Source: a virus
Lineage: Duplodnaviria; Caudoviricetes
DNA: 64,000 nucleotides
Strand: one strand, 5' to 3'
Virus record (IMG/VR): IMGVR_UViG_2840842423_000001
Location: 1 to 64,000 of that record
Part shown: in pieces, positions 6,596 through 36,784 of the stretch
Position numbering within the stretch: the first letter of the stretch is position 1
Layout of the letters: every line of letters begins with the position of its first letter
Made by a program: the position numbers and the translations under genes
The notes under the pieces: model-generated
What the model was told of the DNA's origin: nothing
Database searches by the model: none
The model's input: only the letters and a program-made list of their open reading frames with translations

Positions 6596-8281
6596 TTATT
6601 GAGAGTTTAACGCTTTTCTTAGGTAGGTAATCTCATCCTCCAATAATTCAACCCTATCAATTAACTCCTGAGTACCTCTGAAGTTTGTGGCAATAGCACC
6701 AACTATGTCCACACCTTCACCACGTTTCATGAAATTTGGAACTTCCTCATGCATAAACCCTAAGTGGTATCTATCTTGTAGTGATGTAAATGAATCCGTT
6801 GATTTTCTTTTGAAAGTATATACAGGAGTATTTTTAATATTATCTAGCACACTTTTGTTGTACATATTGATATTTTCTTTAGTTTTTCTCTGTGAACCAG
6901 TCACAAACTCACTGGCATGTATTTCAGCATAACCATCATCACGCCCATTTCTCACTTGCAATGCAATTGTGTCACCATTTAAAAACTTCAATATCGAGTT
7001 TCCTGATGTAATTGTCCTATGATTATGACCATCAACAGGATCGTAACCAAACGAAAACATGGGTATTCCACCTACAAACATATTGTGGATTCTATTTGAG
7101 TACTGTCCACCCAATTCTGCACCATCCGCCCTAACAGCATAGTATGTATATCTATCCTTTTGAAGTCTCATAAAAGGCTCAATATAATCAATCCTACCGT
7201 CAAAGTTGTCAACATTGTCATTACCAAAGTATATCTGTCTATTTGTACCATTCATAATCAGAGTGTTAATTTCACCAGCATTAATAACTCCAAGTTCACC
7301 AGTAATATCACTTAACACATCTACTGCGCCAACTAATTTAATTTTGTTAGAGTCTATAACAATTTCTTCTGGTGATAAGTTAATTGATGAAATGACATCG
7401 TCAGCATTGACCTTTAAATCGATTTCTCCCGGAATCACTGAAATACTGGATTCAAGAACAGAGACCCTTCCATTATACTCCTCTTCTACACCTTTAACCC
7501 TCAGTTCAAATTCACCCGGAAGTAGCGTCATAGTAGTCTCTAAAGAGGTGATTCTGTCATCTAATCCTGTAGTGATTTGACCTACTTCAAAAGATATTTT
7601 TCCCGGAATTAATTCAAACTCTGCCCAGATGTCAGTCACAGAATCGTCCATGTCATCTAGTCGTTCTTCATGTGCCAATTGTATGGAATCAATTCTTGCC
7701 TTCAAAGAAGGATGTCTAAATGCCTTAGTATCAACATAGGCATCTTCTATCTTCTTTTGTTCTGCATTTATCCTATCTCTTGCAACATCAAATACAGTTC
7801 CATTTCTATCAATACGTATATCAACTAATTCACTAGGTTGTGGGTTTTCTCTTATTAACGTATCGACACGATTTCTTTGTTCAAGAATACCTCTGTCAAC
7901 ATCATAAAATTTATCTCTTACGTTTGGAAATTCTAAGTCGTTTGTGAGGTATATTCTAGAATCTGGGAATAACAGTACACCTTCACCCATGTATTCAAAG
8001 TCTAAAGTTTTTCTTGTTTGAGACTCATGGAAGTAAACAATGCCATTAACATAGTCTACATTGAATGTATTCTCGGATAAAAACTCGTCCTCAACCTCAT
8101 ATAAATCCACATTATTGAAAGAAACTTTAACTCTTTCAAACTTAACAGGAACCTCGGAAAGAATTACATAGTGTTTTTCAACAGCTAATGATTCAAATTT
8201 TTTTCTAAACGGGTCAATATGTGTTCCTTTTCTTTTTTGTGATATTATAGGATCACCATAAATTTTTCTTGTGTCCACCAA
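6596..8281 (-). CDS. Tail protein/fibre (YomF-like position) with C-terminal intramolecular chaperone (peptidase S74)
   Basis: PSELVDIRID motif, ISSINLSPEEIVIDSNKI, C-terminal SQRKTKENI...GFMHEEVP...coiled coil. Confidence 0.8.
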   Translation of the reverse strand: MVDTRKIYGDPIISQKRKGTHIDPFRKKFESLAVEKHYVILSEVPVKFERVKVSFNNVDLYEVEDEFLSENTFNVDYVNGIVYFHESQTRKTLDFEYMGEGVLLFPDSRIYLTNDLEFPNVRDKFYDVDRGILEQRNRVDTLIRENPQPSELVDIRIDRNGTVFDVARDRINAEQKKIEDAYVDTKAFRHPSLKARIDSIQLAHEERLDDMDDSVTDIWAEFELIPGKISFEVGQITTGLDDRITSLETTMTLLPGEFELRVKGVEEEYNGRVSVLESSISVIPGEIDLKVNADDVISSINLSPEEIVIDSNKIKLVGAVDVLSDITGELGVINAGEINTLIMNGTNRQIYFGNDNVDNFDGRIDYIEPFMRLQKDRYTYYAVRADGAELGGQYSNRIHNMFVGGIPMFSFGYDPVDGHNHRTITSGNSILKFLNGDTIALQVRNGRDDGYAEIHASEFVTGSQRKTKENINMYNKSVLDNIKNTPVYTFKRKSTDSFTSLQDRYHLGFMHEEVPNFMKRGEGVDIVGAIATNFRGTQELIDRVELLEDEITYLRKALNSQ

Positions 8282-8366: not shown

Positions 8367-8597
8367 CTAGGCGGTTGATACCGTTAGTTTATCTACAACG
8401 AAAGTTCTTATCAAGTCATCAATTGTGCCATCTATACCAGCCTGAAAATATTCTGTAACAGGAACCTTAGGGATGTGTCCATTAACATCTAGCTCCCGTG
8501 CTGGATCAATTCCTCGAAAATATACCTTCCTAAATTGCTCACCGTTTTCTTCTACTGGCATAGAATTTGTCTCGCTAAATTCATACTTCTCCATCAT
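8367..8597 (-). CDS. Small tail-module protein
   Basis: 76-aa ORF with AGGAG RBS between tail genes, followed by a terminator-like hairpin at ~8310-8343. Confidence 0.7.
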   Translation of the reverse strand: MMEKYEFSETNSMPVEENGEQFRKVYFRGIDPARELDVNGHIPKVPVTEYFQAGIDGTIDDLIRTFVVDKLTVSTA

Positions 8598-8631
8598 TTA
8601 TTTTCTCTCCTTAGCTGTGAATTTTAATTAG

Positions 8632-11600
8632 TTATCTTGATTCTTCTAGGATTCTGATTCGCTCTTTTAGCGCTTTTATTTCTGATTTATAGTCTTCATG
8701 AAACTGTTGAACCCCTTTTGTAACTAAGGAGACCATTGCGTAAGCTGAGATACCTTCCCCTTTATCAGTAATTATTTCAAGTGGTGCTTCATCAACAATT
8801 ACACCTAATCGCTTACGTTCCCAATCTTCGTCTTCCTTTAAGTTGTAACATTGAACATTAATATCCAATATTTCCTTTAAGGCATTTCCTTGGTATAACT
8901 CAATGTTTTTCTTTAGCTCTCTCTGTGACCGATCAACAATATCAGAACCGGAAATTACACCGCCAGTAATCCCTGTATACGCTGTGTCTGCTAAATTCCG
9001 AACTTGCATCTGAGAAGAAGAACCGTTTAACATTTTCAAGCCTGTTTTTCCCATAGTCATCCATCCATGATCATACGATTCTACTGTAGTAAACCTTGCA
9101 AACAAATCTCCTGATTTGTAAAACTGAACATCCCCCAGGTAGTTCTGCATGATATAGTCTGAGTTAGTTCTTCTCCACCTTGCATTGCTACCTGTATTAT
9201 CTATGGATGATCCATTGGCGAAATTGATAATATTACCGCCTAATAGTGATAGTTCAGGAGATCTTATGCGCAATGGTGTGGTTGTTTCTATTTCATTACG
9301 TCTAATAAACATGGCCTGACCGCCAATTTCCCCTCCATTGTCCTGAACAAGGGAGACAATACCACCAAACATATTAACTTTTTCGGATGTTCCAAACATG
9401 GTAACAGGGCTTGATGATGTCACGGTATCATTTTCAATGGTCACAAAACCAGTCGGCCCTGATGTAACTAAACTACCAACAAACTCACCTGATACACCAA
9501 CTAGCTCGCCTGTGATAACGGCATTTTCTATAGTCGCATCAACAATTGTAGCTTCATCGAATGTGCCTTTTAAGATAGTAGCATTGGCGGCAGTAAGCGT
9601 ACCTGTTACTGTGCTGCTCTGCAAAGTTGCACTAATAGCTGTCATGTCTCTCATTGTAGCAGACGTAAACGTTGCATTAGCTGCACCAATAGTCCCAGTT
9701 ACAGTCGCATTTGCTAAAGTAGCTCGATTTGCGATTATGTCATTAAAGGTACCTTTCGAAATAACAGCCGTTGCAGCAGAAAGTGTTCCTGTGACTGTAC
9801 TATCCTCAATCGTAGCATCAACAATCGTGGCTGTATCAAACGTGCCATGCAGTATCGTCGTATTCGTAGCAGTCAAAGTACCAGTAACTGTGCTATTTTC
9901 AAAGGTGCTACTAATAGCTGTCATACTCTGCATAGTCGCATTATTAAATATCGCATTGTCGGCTCCGATAGTGCCTGTGACAGTCGCATTTGCTAAAGTA
10001 GCTCTGTTGGCTATGATGTCGTTAAAAGTACCTTTTACGATGACTGAGTTAGTCGCTGTGAGCGTGCCTGTTATTGTTGAGTCTTGGATAGTCGTTTCAA
10101 TCGCTGTCATACGTCTGGTTGTCAGGTCAAGGAATGTTGCATCTGGTGCCGATATGCTACCTTTTATAAGCGTATCGCCTGTAATCTCTACGTTGGCTCC
10201 ATTGATTCTGTCGTCTCCGATTCGGATTCCTGCGATTAGTTCATCATCTTTCACATAAGATAACTCAATCGCATCTTCCAGTATTTTAACTTGTGATCTG
10301 GTATAGCTTGCGTGATCTTCAGGTGCAGGTGTCCAGTCTGTGGCTTTGTTTCCTTTTTCAATCTGTACTTTAGGTATTTTATCACTTTGATTAGATAAAT
10401 AAAGCAACATGTAATTTCCGCTGTTAGGTACTGTAATATTTTCAATTTTTAATGAAGTATCCCTAGTAATTGCACCACCTATATACTCAACGCCATCATC
10501 TGGTTGTTGTTCAGTAAATACAACTCTGAATCTATTGTTACTTAGGTTTTCTCTTGATATGGAATATACCTCACCAGCGACAACGGGCAGCGTGTAGCCC
10601 CTATAAGCACTTGATTCAACAACTGTTCCAGATAACGCTAGGTTATTAACTAATGACGGTCTGAAGTAGTTCCTTCCACCAATCTCCAAATCCCCAATAG
10701 CCCCATCAATATCAGCCTGTTCGACCTTTAAAGTGATATCATTTTTCAAAGCATTAATATCGACTGTAGCTGTACTAATCCAAGTCTGCTGCCCTTCCAC
10801 AACAGAGCTTTCAGCCTTTAGTTCTACTTGACCCGCGATTGTGTTAATGCGACCCTCTGCGCCTGTCATACGCCCTTCAAGCGCATTGTAAGTCTCCTCT
10901 GTTACTCTTAAATTGATAGCATCCCATGTTTGGGATATGTTTGTTTCGTAGTTTACAAATCGCTGTACATAGTTGTCTTGGTCAGTCTGATATGCTGTAA
11001 GCGATACGGTATTATCAAACATGTCGTCAATGTCTGCTTTGATGTAGACATTATCTAAATCAGCCTTGATGTCGATGTCTGCGAATATATCTTCTGGTGC
11101 TGGCGTCCAGTCTGTGGCTTTGTTGCCTTTTTCGAGTTTAATACCTTCTTCATAATCCCCAGCTGGACTTTTTCCGCTGTACCGAACAAAACGTGTATTC
11201 TCCCCCAAATTATAAGTAAATACTTTCCCGCTATTGTTACTTATCCTTCTTATAAATTGTCTGTTTTCGTCATATTCGCTTATGGCTGATGCGGTGGTTA
11301 TTTCGGGATGCGTTTGGGTGGAAGTAAGAGTACCTTCACCTTCAACCGCTATAAGCCCAGTAGTAAAAGCGTTGTTTTCAGTAACTACACTTCCATCTGA
11401 ATTTATCCATGTCTGCGGTTCAACGTCATCCGCTATTACTAAGTTCCTACCGCCGATTTCTATATCATCAATAGCAACCCTTAACCTGCCATTTACCCAA
11501 TCCCCATCAACTTTAGAAGCAATATCATTCGTCAAATCAGTTATTTTGGAATTATAAATAGACAAATCAACCTTATCAGCTACATCATCTCTTACATTGC

Positions 11601-15258: not shown

Positions 15259-18200
15259 TTAAAATTTAATGCCTTTTCTATTTGCTTCTTCTATAACTGC
15301 TGCCCAAGTGTCTTGTGTCTCTTTCTTAGACGCACTAGAATTAGCAACATGAACAGTGATATTGGTTTCGTTGCTTGTGTCTCCGTCAGTTCTATTCAAC
15401 CTAGGAACATTAGGTGTGTTGAATTGTCCTATTAAATCTCGATTAATTTTAACTGAGTTAAGAATATTCTCAGTGTCGTCTGGTTTGAGTACAAACTCAT
15501 CATCGTGAAGTACAGCTAAACCACCGTCTCTACTCTTAACTTTTACTCCTCCGCCCCCGTCAAATTCAGGTATATCTATACCCTGAGCATTGGGGAAGTA
15601 GGCGTTGTTAATTTGAGAGATAGCACGTTGTAAATTCTTAACAACACTTTTACCAAGTTGATCAGTCATTGTTCCAATATCTTTATAGAATGCATCGAGT
15701 TTCTTTTTAATATTATCTGTATTGCCTTCTATGACCTGAGATCGCATATCCATAAATGCCTGCTCATCATTAATCAGATCATCATAATTTTTCTCGATTT
15801 CTTCTCTTTCTTCATTTAATGATTTCTTTCTATCCTCAATAGCTTTATCACGTTGAGTATTATCAATTTCCTCTTCTGATTCTTGTAGCGATTCATTTAA
15901 CTCTTTGATACGTTTTTTAGCAGCATCTGAGTCATCTATACCTAATTCAGCTAGTTCATTTAATATCTCTTGACGATTATCTTGTTGATCTTTGAGACGT
16001 TTTTGATATTCTCTCTCTTTTTCTTTATCGTCAATCTCACTAATTAAATCATCTACGGCTTTTAAAGCAACTTCTTTTTGTGCTTCAAGTGAGCGTTTAA
16101 CCACATCTTCTAATCGTTGATACATGCTGATGCGCTGTTCTAGAATTTGTTGTTCCATATTCCACATTTCAATTTGACGCTCACGTAATGTATCATCTAG
16201 TCGCATCTTTTGAGCGGCAGTAAGATTCTTATTGGATTTGATTTCTCTTTCTAGCCATTTAATAGAGCTCTTTTGTTGTTCAATTTGTTGCTGCATGAGT
16301 TTTTCGCGTTTGACTTGTTGTTTTGCCCATGCGTTAGAATTCTCATGATATCTAGACTGAAAATAATCTACTTCTGCTAATCCTTTATTGAGTTTTGCTT
16401 TAGCATGGTCGAATGCAGCTAAGTGCGATTCAACAATAGCAAAATACAGTTCTTCTATCTGATCATCTATGGAAAGCATGTCGCCTTGCAAACCTACCAA
16501 GGAAGATCTAGCATCTTCTACATTTCCTCGACTTTGTGCAGCCGTTTTAGAGAGCTCTTCTAGGTATTTCATTGGATCAATAGATTGCCCATTACGATCA
16601 ATCTGCAAGTGTAGGTGTGCTCCTGTTGAGTCTCCTGTACTACCTACTCGTCCAAGTTGTTGTCCTGCATCTACTCTTTGACCTTTTTTAACACGCAAGT
16701 CACCAAGCATATGCATATATTTAGCAACAGTGCCATCATCCTGTTCAATAACAACCCAGTTACCAGCAGATTTATCATATCCAGCAATTGTAACTTTACC
16801 ACTACGCAAAGCTTTAACAGCATCACCAGATCTTCCATTTGCCAAGTCTACCCCATGATGCATTCTGTTTGTGCCTTTTGTGGGGTGCTTACGCATACCG
16901 TAGCCAGAAGTTGTTGTAAATTGGTCAAGATAGTAATTTGCAGTTTCATTCATTTTAGAATTGCTAGACTTTACTTGTGCAGTGGTGTTTCCTACCGCAG
17001 AGCCAAAACTTTCAAGATTTGAATTTACTTTTTTGACGTAATTTTGTGTCTCTTCAAATGGAGGAATACCTCCATATTTACGTACATTTCCAGCACCAGC
17101 ATTATAGGCAGCTAAAGCTTTGTTTAAATCTCCACCAAATGCCTTTAATTGTTGTGCTATGTATTTAGTGCCGCCATCAATGTTTTGAGCAGGGTTAAAT
17201 GAATCTTTAACACCTAGTTCTCTCGCTGTTGCAGGCATTAATTGCATTAATCCTCTTGCGCCTGCACCGGACACAGCTCTAGAATTGAAACTGGACTCTT
17301 GTTGTATAATGGAAGCAATTAAAAATGGACTAACACCATACTTTTGTGCGGATTTGTTGATCTCGTTAGCATATTTTCCAGTGTACGTTCCACTAGCGTC
17401 GCTACCAGTGACAACTCCAGTTTGTCTAATATTCCCAGAAGCAATCTGACTTCTTAAATCATCAGCTTGTTCTTTGGTTAAGGTTTTCTTTTCCTTGAGT
17501 AACTCCAATTCTTTCTCAAGTGCTTTTCTATATTGATTTGAGTGTTCAGGATATTTCGATTGAATAGAGTTTTGTTTCTCTAATTCCAAGTTTAAGTTTT
17601 CTAAAGCTAAAGCGTATTTGTCTAATACATAAGTAGTGCTCTCATACTCTTTTGCCATGTTTTTAGCTGATTCAGAGGCTTTATCGGATGCCTCAGATGC
17701 TTTACTGGACGCACTATTTGACTTAGCTAAAGATTCATTCACTTCGCCTAGTGCGCCAATTTGGCTTTGATATGATGGCATTAATGCATCAATGGAAGAT
17801 TTTAATTCGGAGATTGTGCCTCTGGCTTTAGAGGCAGCTCCGCTACTGTGAATCATCTCCATTTCAGCCATCTCACGTTCCATTAATCCAACATTGGCGT
17901 TTGCGGCTTCTTTATAGGCTTTTTGAGCTTCTTCATGTGCCTGAATTACTGCAAATTGTGCCTGAATTTCCTTTTTCATACTTTCCATTCTTGCACGAGT
18001 GCCCATTGCTTGAGCAACAGTCTTAGCATCTTCCGAACTTAGTTTTCCTTTTGCTAGTAAGTCAGTAGATTCACTTAAGACTTCATTTGCAGCTATTTCG
18101 TTCTGCATTGCCTTAATATTTAAATTTGAGCCTTCGACTAAATGAGGAAATTGTGCGATCAGGTTGTCTTTGACATTCTGATATTCTTCCTCTTGAGCAG

Positions 18201-21200
18201 TGGTTAGTTCAGTTTGTTTACCGAGTTCTTGCAAAATTTGATATGAATTAAGTAATGATTGATTCACTTCGTTGGTGTCAGAGCTAATACCAAGCATGGT
18301 TGTCCTAAAATGGTCAGCGTAATCAGACGCATTTTCTAATGAGTTTGCAAACCCTTCTGTAGATTCTTCTGCGCCATCGGCAGAAATAGAGGCTTTGTCC
18401 AGTGTGCCAGAAAGAATGCCAATAACTTCATCGGCTTCTTCTGCATCAAATTCAGCACCAACTAGAGAGGCTCTTAGTAAATCCCAAGATTCCTCCGATT
18501 CAATTGCACCAGTTGACACTGTGCCAATCACTTCATTTAATTTTTCAAGTTGGTTAATATCTAATCCATCAAGAGAGTAACCATCACCTAACTCTTTCTT
18601 TAAGGTGGATACTTTATTAGCAAAATCTCCAATTTCATCTTGGGCAATTTCTGCTTCCTTGACCATGCTTCCAAGCCAAGTAATCTCTGAGTTGTTTAAG
18701 TCTACATTAGCTAGTTCAGCTTGTTTATACACAATTGCCTCGTAGGCTTCTTGGATTTTCTCTGATTCTCCGGTTACAGTGTCTCTATACTCTTGCATAT
18801 CGACTTGCACACCAGCAATCATATTATCCCAGAACTCAGCATCTTTCATGCCTTTGTTAGTGCCTTTACTTACAGCTTCAGCCATTTCTTCTCGGTAGTA
18901 GGCTAAATCTTCCTCTAGCTTTTTCATTTCTTCTCTGGCTTGCTCAATATTTTCTGTGCTAAATGCTATATTGGTCTCAGCCGATTCAGCAGCCAAATCT
19001 CTTTCGAAGGCTATTTGCTCTTCTAGTGCGGAGATGTGTTCTTTTACAATTCCTGTGTTCTCTAGGATTCTATTTCCCTTTTCATCCTCATATTTGACAA
19101 CAGTAGGGAGAAGATCACCTAATTCGTTTTGTAATTCTACATAACGTGTTTCTTGTTCAATATTTCTATCATTTTCTCCAACATTCTCTAATTTTTCATA
19201 TTCGCTCACAAGTTGAGAAATGTTGTCTTTTTCACTTTGTATTGATTTGATGGACTGATCATTGGATCTTTGATAATCATCTATTGCTTTATTTCTATCT
19301 GCAATCTTGCCACTGACCCAAGAAATTGCAGCACCAAGCGCCATAAAACCAGCGATAGGTAAAGCAGCACCTGCGAGGAAGCGCAATGCTCCTGCGCCAA
19401 CTTTAGCGAAGGAGGAGAAAGCTCTACTAGAGCCATGAATAGCAGTTTGCATCATTCCATGGGATTTGACATGTGCTCCTATAGCAATGTCTCCTGCTCT
19501 CATACCTTTAATCAAATCGGCTATATAAGTACCACTAGTTATTGATGCGGTTCTGAGTTTGGAGCTGAATGCTAATATTGCTACACCTGCTACACCAAAC
19601 ACTGGTGCTAAAAGTCCTATAGTATCAATCATTTTAGTAAAAGTATTAAGTGTTGGAATAGCTGCGTTTGTAAAGTTGGTTATTGCGTCTCCAAGTACAT
19701 CTTCTTCTAGACCGATTATTGCTTCTGTCCATGCGTTTTTAACTTTGTTAATTTTAGCTTCATATGAATCTAGGTACGCTTCGTTTTCTCGCATAGCTGA
19801 ACCATGTGAGTCTGTTGCGGATGCCGATGCTGCTGTAGCTTGGTCAAATTGTTCCATTAAAACTAAGAACCGACTCAATTGATACCTCTGCTTTACTACG
19901 GTAAAGTAATAAAGTGTTCTGTTACTTTCACTCTTTACGAGTTACTGACCATAGCTAATATGGCGACCAACCATTTCTGATTGGTTCTACACCTTACTGT
20001 TAGATTATTGTGTAGTTCGGACTTTCCCTTTTTCTTCACCATGATGTGTTAAGAAAGTGTATTAAAGTCTCTGCACGTCTCCTTTAAAAAAGGGTTTCGC
20101 TCACGATTGTCTGTCTCCAGAGTTTTCCTGAATTTAACACGTTGTTTACTAATCATTTCTGACTAGGCTGGCAGGTTTTGTTTACCAGCTATTTTCAATC
20201 CTAGATTCTGTTGCTCAGCCTTCGATAATGTATCCCATTTACCTGCTAAATCAGCTAAGATATCATCTACGGTACGCATTTCACCAGATGATTCTTTAAC
20301 GTTGACTCCAATTGCAGCCATTGCGTCAATTGCAGGTTGGATGGATGTGATACGGGAAGAAATGGATTTTAAACTATTCAGTTCTGTTACTTTCGCTTAC
20401 TTTAAGTAAGTTACTGACTATACAGTGTTATTCATATAGCGGTAAGGCACTTCAACCTTACTCTCTATGTTTCCATAGATGCTCAGACTATCGCTTACTG
20501 CAACAATACGCTACAGTCCCTTATGTTTAGTCGTTCACGCTGCACAAATATATAATTTTGCTTGCGCCCTGTCATCCTCAGCACCATCTGTTAGGAGTTC
20601 CAAGTCAATTAAAAAGGGTTTAAACTCGGCAAATTTTACCGATGATATTTCCACTTTCCCTTGTTACTTGCCCGATGGCTGTGGTGTATCCTACGAGATT
20701 GGACAATTCTATCAATATTGTTACTCTTCTAATAAATAGAAGGGACAAGTCATTTCTGCTTGTCTCAACGCCTTCTGTTAGATTATGTGACGTTGTTCGG
20801 AACATCCCTTCATCATCATCATTACATGTTAAGATGGTGTATTATGTTCTCTGCACCTCTCTGACAACGGTCAGATTTGGCTCACGATTGCCCAATCTCT
20901 GGGGTTCTCCTGAATTTAACACATTATTCACTAATACATTTCCATATTAGGCGGCACTGAGTTTACCGTATGTCCCCGCGGCTCCAGCGGACTTTTGAAT
21001 CGATTGTGCTAGTTGTTGGGTCGTAACACTATAATTGTTCAATTTATACCCTGTCTTTCGACATATTTGTAGGGTTTAGACTATCCCACGTTCTCATAGA
21101 GAACTCGCTATTATAGTCGTTGAAGCTTCCTCTATTATGTAGAGACTTGCCTGCGGATTTCCTATGTATCTCAATCTTTTTTACTATACCTGAATGATTA

Positions 21201-22759
21201 GTTCAGCCCCTACTCGTGTTTCCACAATAGGTTAGTAGATTGAGCTTTAAGGGTTTCCCGTCAATTTAAGCGATTTGCAATATATCATCACTGACATATG
21301 GGACAATAAATTTATCCACTTCATTGAGTTGATCAACTATTCTTATACTATCTTCAGCTTCAATATTAAAACCTTTCATTGCAGCCGTTAACGCACTTGC
21401 AGAGTCATCTACAGTTAAATCTGATACGTTACCCATAACTGTTGCAACTTCCGTTATAGCGCTCAGATCGGTTCCTCTGTACCCTTGTCTAGCAAATGCA
21501 ATTAAGCCTTCATTTACCTCGCCAATCGTATTACCTAATCTTTCAGCTATATCGATACTGCTCTCCATAGCATCATTAATCTGAATTGTTCCATTAGATA
21601 CACGCTCCAACACAGTCATCTGTGAATCTAGCTCAACAATCTGTCGTAGAGCATCTCTCAAAGCTATTATAGGAGCATACATTGCTGCCATACCTGCGGC
21701 ATATATAGGAATACGTAGCATTGCTGATGCAGTTTGACCAGCAAATCGAGACATACCTGCGTCAGCTTTTCTAACATCAACCGCAAGCAGAGAAAACTGT
21801 CTGCTCAATGCCTTGGTTTTGTTCATGACATCAGGTGTTAGTGAGTTCAATCGATTATATTGTTTAGTCAGATTAGTTAATTGCTCGGTATGCTTGGGTG
21901 ACATATTACCTGCTAAACCTTGAGTTAGTTTTTGGGTGTTTGTTTCAAATTGTGCTCTAGCATTGTTTACTCTGGATTCCAATGCCCTCTGTGCTTGCAA
22001 GCTTTTAGAGGATGCTTCCACTCTCTTAAGTTGTGTTTCTAGTTTGTTAAGTTGTGCTACAGATTTAGCTGTGTTGACGGAATTTCCCATTCTAGATAGT
22101 GATTGTGCGCTAAGTTGTCCTTGGTTACCCATTTGTTGTAATTTGAGTCGTAAACGTTCTTGTGTAGCTATCAATTGCTCAGCAATAGATTTAGATTTTA
22201 ACGCTTCAGCTTGTTGTCTTTTTTCAAGTTTGAGATGATTTTCTGCAATATTATATCTAAGGAGTTCATCCTTTGGCGTTTTTGTAACAGTTAGTACATC
22301 TTCACTGTTAGGTTTACTGTACTTTTGGGTGATTTCTGCTTCACCTTTTTTATTGTACTTTGTGACTTCTTGATTCAGTTTCTGCCAACCACGCACAACC
22401 TCAGAAAGTGATTTCTTCTGCTTACTCTGAGCACCAGTAACTCCTTCAACAGCCTTCTTCTGTGAATCACCCATTTGAGAGACAGATTTTTTGAGATTGT
22501 CTATTTCTTTTTGACTCTTCTTTGTGTTAGGTGTGAGCGATTTGTTGACTTGTTTGCCTGTATCAGTTGCGGTGTTTCTCAGGTTTCTCATTTCTTTGTT
22601 GAATGTTCGTATTGATTTTAGTGCTTTATCATCCATGTTAACTTTAATTCTGATTGGTTTGAGTCTTTTAGATATTGCTTTGAGTTGACTTTGAATACTA
22701 CTGCCATCCACTGTGGTGGTGAGTTTAATTCCGAAAGAATCCATAGTTTGAGTTATCAT
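15259..22759 (-). CDS. yomI: Tape measure protein with lytic transglycosylase and M23 peptidase domains (CwlP/YomI-like); 5 exons: 22759-21314, 21039-20965, 20712-20638, 20378-20184, 19887-15259; about 2139 aa spliced
   Basis: Joined exons stay in frame: DQLNEVD|NNYSVTT...AAGTYG|IELSNLVGYTTAIG...SGNIIG|NSLKSISSRI...LKIAG|RYQLSRFLVLM; SLT motif ESSFN...GLMQLMP; M23 motifs HHGVD and HLH. Confidence 0.9.
19888..20183 (-). ncRNA. Group I intron, TMP intron 4 (296 nt, no ORF)
   Basis: P1 GCUGGU/GCCAGC with U.G at the splice site; AAAUUCAGGAAAAC, CAAUCGUGAG, GCAGAGACUUU/GGAAAGUCC core; ends in G; P10 ACCU/AGGU. Confidence 0.9.
20379..20637 (-). ncRNA. Group I intron, TMP intron 3 (259 nt, no ORF)
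   Basis: P1 UCGGU/GCCGA; AAUUGACUUGGAAC, GUGAACGACUA and GAUAGUCU core; terminal G. Confidence 0.9.
20713..20964 (-). ncRNA. Group I intron, TMP intron 2 (252 nt, no ORF)
   Basis: P1 CGGU/GCCG; AAAUUCAGGAGAAC, CAAUCGUGAG, GCAGAGAACAU/GGAUGUUCC core; 3' end inferred from frame and TMP consensus. Confidence 0.85.
21040..21313 (-). ncRNA. Group I intron, TMP intron 1 (274 nt, no ORF)
   Basis: P1 GGAU/GUCC; AAAUUGACGGGAAAC, AAUCCGCAG, UUCAACGACUA and GAUAGUCU core; terminal G. Confidence 0.9.
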
Positions 22760-34333: not shown

Positions 34334-36784
34334 TCAGAACCCAGATTGCATGAAAAACATGTAGTCTGACATATCTTCTTGTTTTCCGCGCAACATTTCT
34401 CTCTCCAATTGATTAGCTATATAGTTAAAATACATCGTACTAGAGAATCTATCCTTCCTAGCTGATCTCTGTTCTTTAAGTTTAATCAACCCACTGTCAG
34501 AATTACGCTCACCTTCGAGATTGATCATTTCATTAATCAACAGTGTAGTTTGCGCATACGGTAATTCCATTTCTGCCTGCACTTCTGGTGGCAACTTATC
34601 AAACCCTTTAATCTTTCTTAAAAAATCTCTACCTTCATTATCTGGAACAAGCAATCTAACTTTTCCACGTTGTAGTCCATCCTTTAATGAAATAGCAGCT
34701 TCACTGTTTAGTTGAGCATTGCCTTTAATAGAGTAGATAACTTTTTCTGCATCTGAATATGTACAACGTATAGCCATTTTTTCATCATTTATACATGAAA
34801 TTGGCTCATATTCTGTTCCTCTTTCATCATCAAGCAATGGAACAACTAATTGATCATATACACCTAACCCTACGCCCATAGTATCCAACACAATATAGTC
34901 TATATCAAAGTCATCGTACATTTGTCTGATACGTACAGCTTGTGCTTGTGTATGTCCACCCTCTAAAGATTCCATATAAGATATTTCTCGTGTATAACCG
35001 TTGGCTGTTGGAATTAGTCTTGCCACAGTAAAAATACTAGCATCATTACGGTTTCCTGCCATTGCAGCAATGTCACAGCTTAATATTCTAATTTCATCTT
35101 TCTTTTTGGTATCAGGTTTGAACTTTTTATCTCTAAGCAAATCATATGTATTAGGTGGGTAGAGTGGTCTTGGTATTTTTCTGTTCCTGTGTAACTCTTC
35201 AAAATTGTAGTATGCTTTTTCAGATTCACCATAGAATAGGCACTCCATTTCTATTGAAAATTCAATCCTATTAAAATCGCTTTCAGCCATTTCATCTTCT
35301 ATTTGGTTTCTATCTAAAAGATTCTCTTTGATAGCTAATTGGTAGGGGAGACCACAAACAAAATATTTTCTACCTTCCATCATGGAGTCAAAATAGGCTT
35401 GCATACGTTTGTAAGACCAATGGAACTTGTACCATGCAGAGCTTAGATATAACTCTTGGTTACGTTCAATAAGGTGGGCGTATTCTGGTTTCTTTAAGTA
35501 ACCCGGGTTTCTTGGAGCCGACAAAAATTTACGTAAAACGCTGGAAATGACACTTATGTCAACCATCCTAAATTCCGTTTTTAGTCATATAGAGGCGCTA
35601 ATCTCTATACAGTTCGCTTATGAACTTCTACATGTTTCCATATAGTCTAGACTATCTCATCATCCACATAGAGGGATGCTTCCTGTTTCCACTGTCAAAA
35701 GCTTACAGTGTACGCCTTCCGGCTAGTCGTTGAACCTTCTCCTTTAAGGAGCTTGGCTGCTGATTGTCCTCAACATTACTTGTTAGGAGTTCCCAGCAAT
35801 TTAAGAAGTTTTCGCTATTGCATCACTGTCAATAGGGGACTAATTATTAATCCACAATTAGGATGTTTGCTCTCTTTCCTCGCGCACCATCGTTCGCTGC
35901 TACAGTTTTAATCCAACTACCATTATGGAATAAAACTTGCGGATCTTTTGAGCCTGTGTTTATATCACTTATTTCTCTTTTTAATCCCGGAGAGTCATGT
36001 CTAATTTCCTCTATCTTTTCAATTACTTCTCTGGATTGGCTACGCAAGCCAGCAGCTATGACTATCTTCGAATTCGGCTTAAGAACCGAAACTACGCAAC
36101 AGTAAATAGCTGTCAAAAAGGTTTTTCCCTGCAATTTCGTGTTTATATTAAGTCGCCAGTCTTAATACAGATTTTAATCTCTTATGCTTTCACACAAGAA
36201 CAGACTATTTCTTCATCCTCAGCATTATCTGTTAGGAGCAACCCGCTTCCACCACCAGTGGCTTGTGATGTACTTCCTTTCGGAATAGTCGTTGAACGTT
36301 TCTCTATTCGAGACTTCGCTGCATGAACATCCATTGTCTCAACAATTAGGATTTTGTCCGTATGTTATCCCTTTACTTTTTTCTGCTTTCGCTCCTTCAC
36401 GTCTAGGTTTCTTTCATCCTTCCGTTGTGGCAAAAGGGCTTTAGGAGTTGCCTGCAATTCAAGTTGTGCTCTGTGCATGTTTCCATACACACGGGGCAGA
36501 ATTAGTTACCCCCTCGACGCAAAATACATAAAATAGTTATTAAACATCATCATCATAATCAATATCTGTTGGAACATTTTCAGTTTAATTCCAAAATAGT
36601 CCTCAACAAATCGATGTGGATTGGCTCTATAGAAACTCGTCCACACTCCCACACCTTCCATTAACCGTTCTGACTTTGTTAAATTGTCATTATGTTTGTT
36701 AACATTTCTTCCAGCTTTAAATATGTTGTTACCTTTGTGGCGTTTGTTTCTCTCGGTTTGAAAAGGAACTTGGTTGCTACTCAT
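34334..36784 (-). CDS. yonF: Terminase large subunit (YonF-like); 3 exons: 36784-36509, 36131-35850, 35575-34334; about 599 aa spliced
   Basis: Joining restores Walker A ASRG|QGKT and Walker B ILIVD|EFR; nuclease motifs [19 protein letters not shown]. Confidence 0.9.
35576..35849 (-). ncRNA. Group I intron in terminase Walker B (274 nt, no ORF)
   Basis: P1 GGAU/GUCC; AAAUUGCUGGGAAC, AAUCAGCAG, GUUCAACGACUA, GAGAUAGUCU; terminal G. Confidence 0.92.
36132..36508 (-). ncRNA. Group I intron in terminase Walker A (about 377 nt, no ORF)
   Basis: GAAUUGCAGGCAAC, UCAUGCAG, GUUCAACGACUA, GAAAUAGUCU core; terminal G before CAG GGA AAA; 5' site ambiguous by 1 nt. Confidence 0.88.

What the first reader, a model, noticed from the sequence alone, without database searches (positions are those of the whole stretch)
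19888..21313. Four ORF-less group I introns packed into 345 coding nt of the tape measure gene
Seen: the 1.4-kb gap between the two TMP ORFs resolves into four introns (274, 252, 259, 296 nt) and three small exons (75, 75, 195 nt). Each intron has a P1 helix with U.G at the 5' site, a P7-type core and a terminal G, and all are in phase 0. Removing them gives a continuous ~2139-aa TMP. Known: phage group I introns are mostly reported in DNA/nucleotide metabolism genes and usually number one to three per gene. Inference: tail assembly needs four splicing events, and exon skipping would give in-frame shorter TMPs, so splicing could act as a checkpoint on, or a source of variation in, tail length.
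Basis: partly seen in the sequence, partly recalled or inferred. Interest (0 to 1): 0.85.

Follow-up and report, generated by a model that had tools for sequence, protein, structure and literature searches.

The report
Four introns in a phage tail-ruler gene
The tail-length "ruler" gene of a prophage in Virgibacillus is interrupted by four small self-splicing (group I) introns packed into its most conserved stretch, an unusually dense example of a kind of selfish element already known from such genes.

Summary
On the minus strand, 19888-21313 holds four ORF-less group I introns (274, 252, 259, 296 nt) and three small exons (75, 75, 195 nt). All four introns lie between codons. Each follows a U that pairs with G in P1, has a P7 helix and ends in G. 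Joining the exons gives a 2139-aa tape measure protein with no stop. It aligns without a break across all four junctions with intron-less SPbeta YomI and four other uninterrupted homologues. Rfam finds all four, but only one above its gathering score.

Group I introns in prophage tape measure genes were described in 2008. Exon skipping between similar phage group I introns is also in print. I found no evidence for a checkpoint or tail-length role, and skipping would change the protein length by only 1.2-5.4%.

The best reading is selfish introns that lost their homing endonuclease genes, sitting in a conserved hot-spot. In 16 of 56 related contigs the same region is interrupted, mostly at the same four sites. 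Some of those insertions carry endonuclease ORFs. Relatives have at most three interruptions, so four is the highest count seen here. No RNA data were available, so splicing is not shown.

The parts
21314..22759 (-). TMP exon 0 (482 aa), N-terminal part; its end enters the PF10145 core
   Evidence: ORF list. Pfam PF10145 profile positions 4-85, 38.4 bits. tblastn with YomI residues 7-472 ends exactly at 21314.
21040..21313 (-). Intron I1, group I, 274 nt, site 1 (after the codons for ..NEVD)
   Evidence: RF00028 54.8 bits, above the gathering score of 50. P1 GGAU/GUCC with U.G; ends in G. 5' and 3' ends 82-88% identical to the site-1 introns of Geobacillus virus E3, L036 and L037.
20965..21039 (-). 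Micro-exon e1, 75 nt / 25 aa
   Evidence: Open in one frame only. Aligns to YomI 473-497 and to four uninterrupted homologues without a gap.
20713..20964 (-). Intron I2, group I, 252 nt, site 2
   Evidence: RF00028 35.0 bits, E 9.6e-07, below the gathering score. 75% identical to I4 over 195 nt. P7 GAACAU/AUGUUC is compensatory relative to I4. Its ends match an ORF-bearing intron at site 2 of L031.
20638..20712 (-). Micro-exon e2, 75 nt / 25 aa
   Evidence: Open in one frame only. Collinear with homologues.
20379..20637 (-). Intron I3, group I, 259 nt, site 3
   Evidence: RF00028 35.0 bits, E 9.5e-07, below the gathering score. MFE z only -1.34. 78% identical over 203 nt to the site-3 intron of L033. 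RNAalifold on four site-3 introns gives 48 pairs, 20 with compensatory changes. Its ends match the LAGLIDADG-bearing site-3 intron of L005.
20184..20378 (-). Exon e3, 195 nt / 65 aa, end of the PF10145 core
   Evidence: Pfam PF10145 profile positions 136-201, 34.7 bits. tblastn with YomI 523-587 matches exactly these coordinates.
19888..20183 (-). Intron I4, group I, 296 nt, site 4
   Evidence: RF00028 45.1 bits, E 9.1e-10, below the gathering score. P1 has 6 pairs and P10 has 4. 80% identical over 261 nt to the site-4 intron of Lederbergia citrisecunda (L006), whose TMP is only about 34% identical in protein.
15259..19887 (-). Last TMP exon (1542 aa plus stop) with lytic transglycosylase and M23 peptidase domains
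   Evidence: Pfam SLT 114.8 bits and Peptidase_M23 92.8 bits. The YomI alignment resumes at 19884.

Best explanation
The tape measure gene of an SPbeta/YomI-like prophage of Virgibacillus profundi P3-H5 is split by four small group I introns without homing endonuclease genes. All four lie in the roughly 225-aa block that is the most conserved part of the protein, the PF10145 core.

Mechanism:
- Each intron should excise itself from the late mRNA by the usual two transesterifications. An external guanosine attacks after the U of the U.G pair in P1, and the freed exon end then attacks after the terminal G.
- An in-frame stop 6-16 codons into each intron would end translation of any unspliced RNA.
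- Only RNA spliced four times encodes the 2139-aa protein.

Origin and role:
- The introns are best seen as selfish passengers.
- They descend from mobile introns that home into conserved target sequences shared by distantly related tape measure genes, and they have since lost their endonuclease ORFs.
- I2 and I4 are paralogues that use guide sequences for different but similar ..GGU|A sites.

Shown here: the anatomy, collinearity with intron-less genes, presence/absence polymorphism, and conservation of the fold.
Inferred: actual splicing, the history of endonuclease gene loss, and neutrality.
For: 1. Ribozyme signature. There are 4 RF00028 matches on the coding strand. All four have U.G in P1, a P7 helix and a terminal G. 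In the I2/I4/L006 family 21 of 58 RNAalifold pairs carry compensatory changes. In the site-3 family 20 of 48 do.

2. Exact excision restores the gene. The spliced ORF is 2139 aa without a stop. SPbeta YomI aligns as one HSP (query 11-951) across all four junctions. P0023, P0024, P0025 and P0027 align without a gap across the stretch that spans all four junctions, apart from one single-residue gap in P0023 inside e3. Pfam PF10145 positions 4-85 and 136-201 flank a 50-position gap that equals e1 plus e2.

3. Presence/absence polymorphism. Of 61 related records (56 distinct contigs), 18 records (16 contigs) are interrupted in this region.
- Site 1 or a site 4 nt upstream: L001, L010, L011, L030, L031, L032, L036, L037.
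- Site 2: L011, L031.
- Site 3: L005, L031, L033, L034, L040, and L009 nearby.
- Site 4: L006, L032, L046.

4. Horizontal spread. The introns are more alike than their host genes. I4 is 80% identical to the L006 intron over 261 nt, while the two TMPs are about 34% identical in protein.

5. Homing origin. Long versions at the same sites carry endonuclease-like ORFs.
- L005, site 3: LAGLIDADG_2, E 3.3e-27.
- L046, site 4: homing endonuclease associated repeat, E 1.3e-12.
- L031 site 2 and L030 site 1: DUF559/Vsr-like, weak.
- The I2 and I3 ends match the ends of such long introns.

6. The introns lie in the conserved block. Mean identity is 0.33-0.65 over aa 426-650, against about 0.2 elsewhere.

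7. Precedent. HEG-less group I introns in prophage TMP genes, in-frame, with early stop codons and with related introns at different sites of one gene, are described in PMC2504315.
Against: - No transcript evidence: no sequencing run could be listed, so splicing is unproven.
- 3 of the 4 introns score below Rfam's gathering cut-off (45.1, 35.0 and 35.0 bits against 50).
- I3's folding energy is not better than shuffles (z -1.34, 20 of 200).
- P10 is only 2 pairs for I1-I3.
- Most interruptions in relatives got no RF00028 match. None was found in L010 or at L011's first interruption at E<=0.01. L011's site-2 interruption scored only 22.1 bits. In a 65-kb scan, 7 of 8 interrupted loci had no match at E<=0.01. 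L005 and L009 also had none.
- Their intron nature therefore rests on tblastn breaks, similarity to the window's introns and inspection.
- No free-standing or intron-borne homing endonuclease related to those of L005 or L009 is in the window, so present mobility is unexplained.
Confidence: 0.85

Rival explanations
1. The intron cluster has been put to use. Four tightly packed introns with cross-compatible guide sequences could produce exon-skipped, in-frame TMP isoforms. Alternatively they could make TMP synthesis depend on GTP or ongoing translation, acting as a checkpoint or a source of tail variation.
For: - All introns are in phase 0, so any skipping stays in frame.
- Sites 2-4 all end ..GGU|A. 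I2's guide pairs equally (4 contiguous pairs) with the exon ends of sites 2, 3 and 4, and I3's guide gives 4, 5 and 4 pairs.
- I2 and I4 are 75% identical over 195 nt.
- Exon skipping is documented for Twort orf142 and for the SIOphi polymerase gene (47.2% of transcripts), and a 'molecular on-switch' idea is in print (PMC11878797 discussion; PMC3073962 passage).
Against: - No RNA data exist for this locus.
- The skippable exons encode the most conserved part of the PF10145 core.
- The uninterrupted homologues aligned lack none of them, so skipped products are likely non-functional.
- The length effect is small: 25-115 of 2139 aa, or 1.2-5.4%.
- Relatives carry 0, 1, 2 or 3 interruptions in varied combinations. 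That pattern fits gain and loss of selfish elements better than a conserved regulatory device.
Confidence: 0.07
2. One or more of the four introns no longer splices. The tape measure gene is then a pseudogene in a decaying, non-inducible prophage.
For: - 3 of the 4 introns score below the Rfam gathering score.
- I3 has a weak folding z-score.
- P10 is short for I1-I3.
- No endonuclease genes are left in the introns.
Against: - All five exons are intact, with no frameshift or stop over 2139 codons.
- All four keep P1 with U.G, P7 and a terminal G.
- The weak-scoring I2 and I3 keep helices by compensatory changes relative to orthologues in other genomes.
- Neighbouring tail and head genes are long open frames.
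Confidence: 0.12
3. The interruptions are not introns. The tape measure function would be supplied by separately translated polypeptides, as the two-CDS annotation of Geobacillus virus E3 (GP42 and GP43) implies.
For: The public annotation of E3 lists an N-terminal and a C-terminal TMP as two CDS.
Against: - The E3 gap holds an RF00028 match of 48.7 bits, at the same site as I1.
- In the window, e1 and e2 are 25-aa pieces of one Pfam domain.
- Intron-less homologues encode the whole region as one chain.
Confidence: 0.02

Closest known systems
TMP-IVS1, IVS2, IVS3a/b: group I introns in tape measure genes of Bacillus cereus-group prophages (Tourasse & Kolsto 2008, PMC2504315; section 8 part 1 and passages read)
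   Same: - Host gene class (prophage TMP).
- Small introns lacking a complete homing endonuclease gene, inserted in frame, with early stop codons.
- Related introns at different sites of one gene with adapted guide sequences (their IVS1/IVS2 are 80% identical; I2/I4 here are 75% over 195 nt).
- A terminase intron in the same prophage.
   Different: - They report three sites, and the prophages named in the part I read carry two each. Here four sit in one gene within 345 coding nt.
- The TMP family differs: this one is YomI-like, 2139 aa, with SLT and M23 domains.
- I could not test whether any of their sites equals sites 1-4, because the figure with the site sequences is not held. A tblastn of 'plasmids' did not return pBWB404.
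[quoted passage not shown]
   Same: - Several similar group I introns in one phage tail gene (said to encode the tail tube protein).
- Transcripts lacking an exon were observed.
   Different: - Three introns, not four, and a different gene.
- Splicing and skipping were shown experimentally there. Nothing is shown experimentally here.
Group I introns of Bastillevirinae phages (Weglewska et al. 2025, PMC11878797; abstract, sections 15 and 19 read)
   Same: - IA-like phage introns, up to three per gene.
- Some have Vsr-type, HNH or LAGLIDADG endonucleases and some have none.
- Rfam models often miss parts of the introns.
- Alternative splicing was seen in one gene.
   Different: - Their host genes are DNA polymerase, terminase and nucleotide-metabolism genes; none is a TMP.
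- Their mean intron length is 802 nt, mostly with endonuclease ORFs. Here the introns are 252-296 nt and ORF-less.
Geobacillus virus E3 TMP (NC_029073, GP42 + GP43)
   Same: - Homologous TMP (about 33% identity to exon 0).
- Interrupted at exactly site 1 by a roughly 300-nt element with an RF00028 match (48.7 bits).
- Its intron ends are 82-84% identical to those of I1.
   Different: - One intron only.
- It is annotated as two CDS and no intron is noted in the record.
- A full-text search for 'Geobacillus virus E3' plus 'intron' found 0 papers.
SPbeta YomI (NP_046584, 2285 aa)
   Same: - Same architecture (PF10145 core, SLT, M23).
- Same neighbourhood, with an integrase-like gene upstream and Dit and tail genes downstream.
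- Collinear with the spliced protein.
   Different: - Uninterrupted.
- No RF00028 match at E<=0.01 in the 15-kb locus.

Membership tests
Group I self-splicing intron (Rfam RF00028) | Match to the covariance model at or above the curated gathering score (50 bits) | tested here: inconclusive
   1 of 4 passes (I1, 54.8 bits). I4 scores 45.1, and I2 and I3 score 35.0 each. These are below the cut-off but have E from 9.1e-10 to 9.6e-07 in a 2-kb scan.
Group I self-splicing intron (Rfam RF00028) | P1 helix between the 5' exon end and an internal guide sequence, with a U.G pair at the 5' splice site | tested here: met
   4 of 4: 4, 4, 5 and 6 contiguous pairs starting with U.G (also in the Rfam alignments).
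Group I self-splicing intron (Rfam RF00028) | Conserved core helices P3-P8, including the P7 guanosine-binding helix, kept by covariation | tested here: met
   P7 is readable in all four introns. In I2/I4/L006, 21 of 58 predicted pairs have compensatory changes, 3 of them among the 6 P7 pairs. In the site-3 family, 20 of 48 do. The samples are small (3 and 4 sequences).
Group I self-splicing intron (Rfam RF00028) | Terminal G (omega-G) before the 3' exon, and precise excision that restores the host reading frame | tested here: met
   All four introns end in G. The joined exons give 2139 aa, collinear with intron-less homologues.
Group I self-splicing intron (Rfam RF00028) | Guanosine-dependent self-splicing of the RNA | not testable with these tools
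   No run could be listed for the region. An in vitro assay is needed.
Mobile (homing) group I intron | Intron-encoded homing endonuclease | tested here: not met
   None of the three small ORFs lying mostly in the introns has a Pfam match. The window has no relative of the L005 or L009 intron ORFs. Endonuclease-like ORFs occur only in introns at the same sites in relatives.
Phage tail tape measure protein, PF10145 (PhageMin_Tail) core, YomI-like | PF10145 domain plus a long protein with C-terminal lytic domains, encoded next to Dit and tail genes | tested here: met
   PF10145 in exon 0 (38.4 bits) and in e3 (34.7 bits), both above the 33.2 cut-off. SLT and M23 in the last exon. Dit-like and minor tail genes lie downstream. 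YomI matches with E 3e-119.

The most novel reading that the evidence does not exclude
The four packed introns, three of which share ..GGU|A sites and interchangeable guide sequences, produce appreciable amounts of exon-skipped, in-frame tape measure mRNAs (lacking 25 to 115 codons). The phage uses this, or the need for four GTP-dependent splicing events, to time or diversify tail assembly.
Probability: 0.05. Interest if true: 0.75.

Novelty: new member of a known kind. Interest (0 to 1): 0.42.

Why it matters
Relatives have at most three interruptions, and the papers I read report at most three per gene.
- Across relatives, the PF10145 core of YomI-like tape measure genes is an intron hot-spot. 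It has at least seven group I sites and one group II site. One relative has a 19-nt micro-exon.
- The locus is a compact natural test bed. It could show how neighbouring ribozymes fold and choose splice sites without interfering with each other. It could also show how introns without endonuclease genes move between genes that are only about a third identical.
- There is a practical consequence. Such genes are annotated as fragments. Geobacillus virus E3 lists two TMP CDS, and many database proteins of this clade end at these sites. Rfam alone misses most of the introns.

Tried and rejected
- RNA evidence: the look-up of sequencing runs listed no run for 19700-21500 (none was listed).
- Whole-genome searches: no genome is held for the window or for its contig.
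- Near-identical DNA in the phage collection: none.
- Close relatives in viral contigs with the single protein as query: none. The alignment-based scans worked.
- Rfam on relatives was mostly blank.
  - I therefore did not call interruptions group I introns on Rfam grounds.
  - I used similarity to the window's introns and inspection instead.
  - L009_s3, L040_s3 and L010_s1 have no significant blastn match to the window's introns.
- Pfam gave nothing for the pieces of the second split gene.
- Testing whether the B. cereus-group sites IVS1-3 coincide with sites 1-4 failed. The figure is not held, and the plasmid collection search did not return that TMP.
- Landthaler & Shub 1999 could not be read.
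- Co-conversion test around site 4: the 30 nt on each side are 25 of 30 identical to L006, against 13-21 of 30 further out. This is suggestive only and I did not pursue it.
- Rejected readings:
  - Inteins, because each insert has in-frame stops.
  - Group II introns, because there is no such Rfam match in the window.
  - Programmed frameshifting, because the exons are 250-300 nt apart.
Full report
**1. What is at the coordinates**

All genes in this part of the window run on the minus strand. A 497-aa ORF (22759-21266) and a 1539-aa ORF (19878-15259) flank a 1.4-kb stretch without a long ORF.

A gathering-threshold Rfam scan of the whole window gave three matches, all to RF00028 (group I intron). 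One of them lies at 21323-21057. A more permissive scan of 19600-21600 returned four matches. All are RF00028 and all are on the coding strand:

| Position | Bits | E-value |
|---|---|---|
| 21323-21057 | 54.8 | 1.1e-12 |
| 20193-19997 | 45.1 | 9.1e-10 |
| 20648-20463 | 35.0 | 9.5e-07 |
| 20974-20806 | 35.0 | 9.6e-07 |

Only the first passes the curated cut-off of 50 bits.

**2.

- Each small exon is open in exactly one frame, continuous with its neighbours.
- Each 5' exon ends in T.
- Each intron starts AAA and ends in G.
- In-frame stops follow after 16, 6, 6 and 7 intron codons.

A script that searched for the guide sequence found P1 helices of 4, 4, 5 and 6 contiguous pairs. Each begins with the U.G pair at the splice site. 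P10 has 2, 2, 2 and 4 pairs.

Joining the five exons in a script gives 2139 codons with no stop.

**3. Intron-less homologues confirm the junctions**

- PF10145 matches exon 0 over profile positions 4-85 and e3 over positions 136-201. The missing 50 positions equal e1 plus e2. The last exon carries SLT and M23 domains.
- SPbeta YomI is uninterrupted, with no RF00028 match in its locus. It aligns to the window in five collinear pieces whose ends fall on the proposed borders.
- YomI aligns to the script-made spliced protein as a single HSP, residues 11-951.
- Four uninterrupted database relatives (P0023, P0024, P0025, P0027) align across the stretch that spans all four junctions. The only gap is a single residue in P0023 inside e3. 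Short conserved motifs lie on both sides of each junction.

**4. The fold is conserved**

- I2 and I4 are 75% identical over 195 nt.
- I4 is 80% identical over 261 nt to an intron at the same site in Lederbergia citrisecunda (L006). The TMP of that genome is only about 34% identical in protein.
- RNAalifold on these three introns predicted 58 pairs, 21 with compensatory changes. P7 reads GACUUU/AAAGUC, GAACAU/AUGUUC and GAUCAU/AUGAUC. This explains why I2 scores poorly in Rfam, since its P7 sequence differs from the consensus while the pairing is kept.
- I3 is the weakest on its own, at 35 bits with an MFE z-score of -1.34 (20 of 200 shuffles fold as well). It is 78% identical over 203 nt to the site-3 intron of L033.
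- An alignment of four site-3 introns gave 48 predicted pairs, 20 with compensatory changes. These cover P3, P4-P6 and P8.
- The other MFE z-scores were -3.72 for I1, -2.31 for I2 and -3.21 for I4.
- These alignments hold only 3 and 4 sequences, so the covariation evidence is supportive rather than statistical proof.

**5. Context**

A genome-collection scan identified the window as part of contig NZ_NPOA01000004.1 of Virgibacillus profundi P3-H5.

- Downstream of the TMP lie a Dit-like gene and a 1919-aa tail protein gene.
- Upstream lie an integrase-like gene and, further on, a portal gene. This resembles the SPbeta arrangement.
- The other two RF00028 matches of the window (35859-35628, 91.9 bits; 36540-36181, 52.2 bits) split a gene just upstream of the portal gene. 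Its pieces match phrog_15503 and, weakly, a terminase large subunit family. Pfam gave nothing for these pieces.
- This prophage therefore carries at least six group I introns.

**6. Relatives show a hot-spot**

I examined 61 related records with DNA, which represent 56 distinct contigs. Five records are the same contig held in two collections.

- By tblastn with the spliced protein, 18 records (16 contigs) have an insertion in this region. L006 was missed by the chaining but appears.
- 40 contigs have no insertion. A few short ones (L056, L058) do not reach all four sites.

Site occupancy:

| Site | Interrupted loci |
|---|---|
| Site 1, or a site 4 nt upstream in phase 2 | E3 (L001), L010, L011, L030, L031, L032, L036, L037 |
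| Site 2 | L011, L031 |
| Site 3 | L005, L031, L033, L034, L040, and L009 nearby |
| Site 4 | L006, L032, L046 |

Further points:

- L032 also has a second intron 19 nt after site 4, which leaves a 19-nt micro-exon.
- L036 has a further RF00028 match upstream (72.4 bits).
- L007 has an ORF-less group II intron three codons after site 1.
- No relative has more than three interruptions. L031 and L032 each have three.

Truncated database proteins of this clade end at the same places. Of 17 aligned relatives, 6 end at site 1, 6 at the site 4 nt upstream, 2 at site 2, 1 inside e2, 1 at site 3 and 1 after the motif that follows site 4. That sample is biased, because the length filter selects split forms.

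Among isolated phages the interruptions are rare. In a tblastn with an intron-less stretch, only the 2 rows of phage E3 were split among the 60 rows listed (144 matching records). None of 34 plasmid records was split.

**7. Limits of the comparative evidence**

Rfam did not recognise most of the relatives' insertions.

- There was no RF00028 match at E<=0.01 in L010 or at L011's first insertion.
- L011's site-2 insertion scored 22.1 bits.
- In a scan of 8 interrupted loci, 7 had no match.
- L005 and L009 had none.

I call these insertions introns on three grounds. The first is their position. The second is similarity to the window's introns. The third is visible P1 with U.G and a terminal G where I looked. 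L009, L040 and L010 lack significant sequence similarity to the window's introns.

**8. How it most likely works and arose**

The four introns should each self-splice. Only the fully spliced mRNA encodes the TMP. I infer this from the anatomy; it is not shown.

The introns lie in the most conserved block of the protein. Identity over aa 426-650 is 0.33-0.65, against about 0.2 elsewhere. This is the usual habit of homing introns.

Longer introns at the same sites in relatives carry endonuclease-like ORFs:

- LAGLIDADG_2 at site 3 in L005 (E 3.3e-27).
- A homing-endonuclease-associated repeat at site 4 in L046 (E 1.3e-12).
- Weak DUF559/Vsr-like matches at sites 2 and 1 (L031 and L030), and a Vsr-like match below cut-off at site 3 in L040.

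I2 and I3 match the two ends of such long introns, with the ORF falling in between. I therefore read the window's introns as endonuclease-less descendants of mobile introns, which fits the invasion-decay cycle discussed in PMC2504315.

How they moved between very different TMP genes is open. No related endonuclease is in the window.

**9.

Skipping would indeed stay in frame. The guide sequences of I2 and I3 pair about as well with the exon ends of sites 2-4 as with their own. Mis-pairing is therefore structurally conceivable.

Exon skipping has precedent in Twort orf142 and in the SIOphi polymerase gene.

Three points weigh against a functional role:

- The skippable exons are the most conserved part of the protein, and the uninterrupted homologues I aligned lack none of them.
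- Their loss would change the length by only 1.2-5.4%.
- The variable occupancy among relatives looks like selfish gain and loss.

I put a functional role at about 5-7%.

**10. Comparison with what is known, and novelty**

HEG-less group I introns in prophage TMP genes were described in 2008 for the B. cereus group. That work found three sites, paralogous introns at different sites of one gene, and a terminase intron in the same prophage (PMC2504315).

The papers I read report up to three introns per phage gene (PMC11878797; title of Landthaler & Shub 1999).

Three full-text searches turned up no description of introns in YomI-like TMPs:

- 'group I intron' plus 'tape measure'. It listed 25 of 38 papers, of which I opened five.
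- 'yomI' plus 'intron'. It listed 10 of 28 papers, and I saw only the listing.
- 'four group I introns' plus 'phage'.

Supplementary tables of these papers were not seen and may list further cases.

This is a new and unusually dense member of a known kind. It is not a new mechanism.

Noticed in passing
window 35628-35859 and 36181-36540 (minus strand): Two more group I introns (RF00028 91.9 and 52.2 bits) split a gene just upstream of the portal gene. Its pieces match phrog_15503 and, weakly (E 9.2e-06), a terminase large subunit family. Pfam finds nothing for them. The prophage thus carries at least six group I introns.
   Followed up: partly
L001 (Geobacillus virus E3, NC_029073) 8492-8795: The TMP of this published phage is annotated as two CDS (GP42 and GP43). 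The gap holds an RF00028 match (48.7 bits) at exactly site 1, so it is probably one gene with an unannotated intron.
   Followed up: partly
L007 (Saccharibacillus deserti) about 7550-8198: An ORF-less group II intron of about 650 nt (RF02004 104 bits; RF00029 62.1 bits) sits in the homologous TMP three codons downstream of site 1. The same hot-spot is therefore used by a different intron class.
   Followed up: partly
L032 1777-2313: After an I4-like intron at site 4 comes a 19-nt micro-exon. It is followed by a second, I3-like intron in phase 1. This is the shortest exon seen in the family. A truncated database protein (P0016) ends at the same place.
   Followed up: partly
L011 5816-6124; proteins P0003, P0004, P0008, P0011, P0013: A distinct insertion site lies 4 nt upstream of site 1 (phase 2, within the Val codon). 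It is occupied by a different intron whose 3' end resembles those of I3 and I4. Rfam does not detect it.
   Followed up: partly
L009 6640-8275 and L040 4776-6053: Insertions of 1.3-1.6 kb at or near site 3 carry ORFs with zinc-finger and Vsr-like or CapR/DUF723-like signatures. They have no Rfam match and no similarity to I3, so their nature (an intron with an unusual endonuclease?) is open.
   Followed up: no
window I3 and I4 3' parts; L005, L011, L030, L032, L046 intron 3' ends: A shared 3' module (a hairpin flanked by GUCAGUAAC ... GAAAGUAACAG) recurs in introns at different sites. I4 carries an extra 9-bp hairpin after it, before the terminal G.
   Followed up: no
L036 2178-2256: A skipping-rope sRNA match (RF02924, 50.4 bits, above its gathering score of 36.7) lies upstream of the TMP gene in this metagenomic relative.
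   Followed up: no
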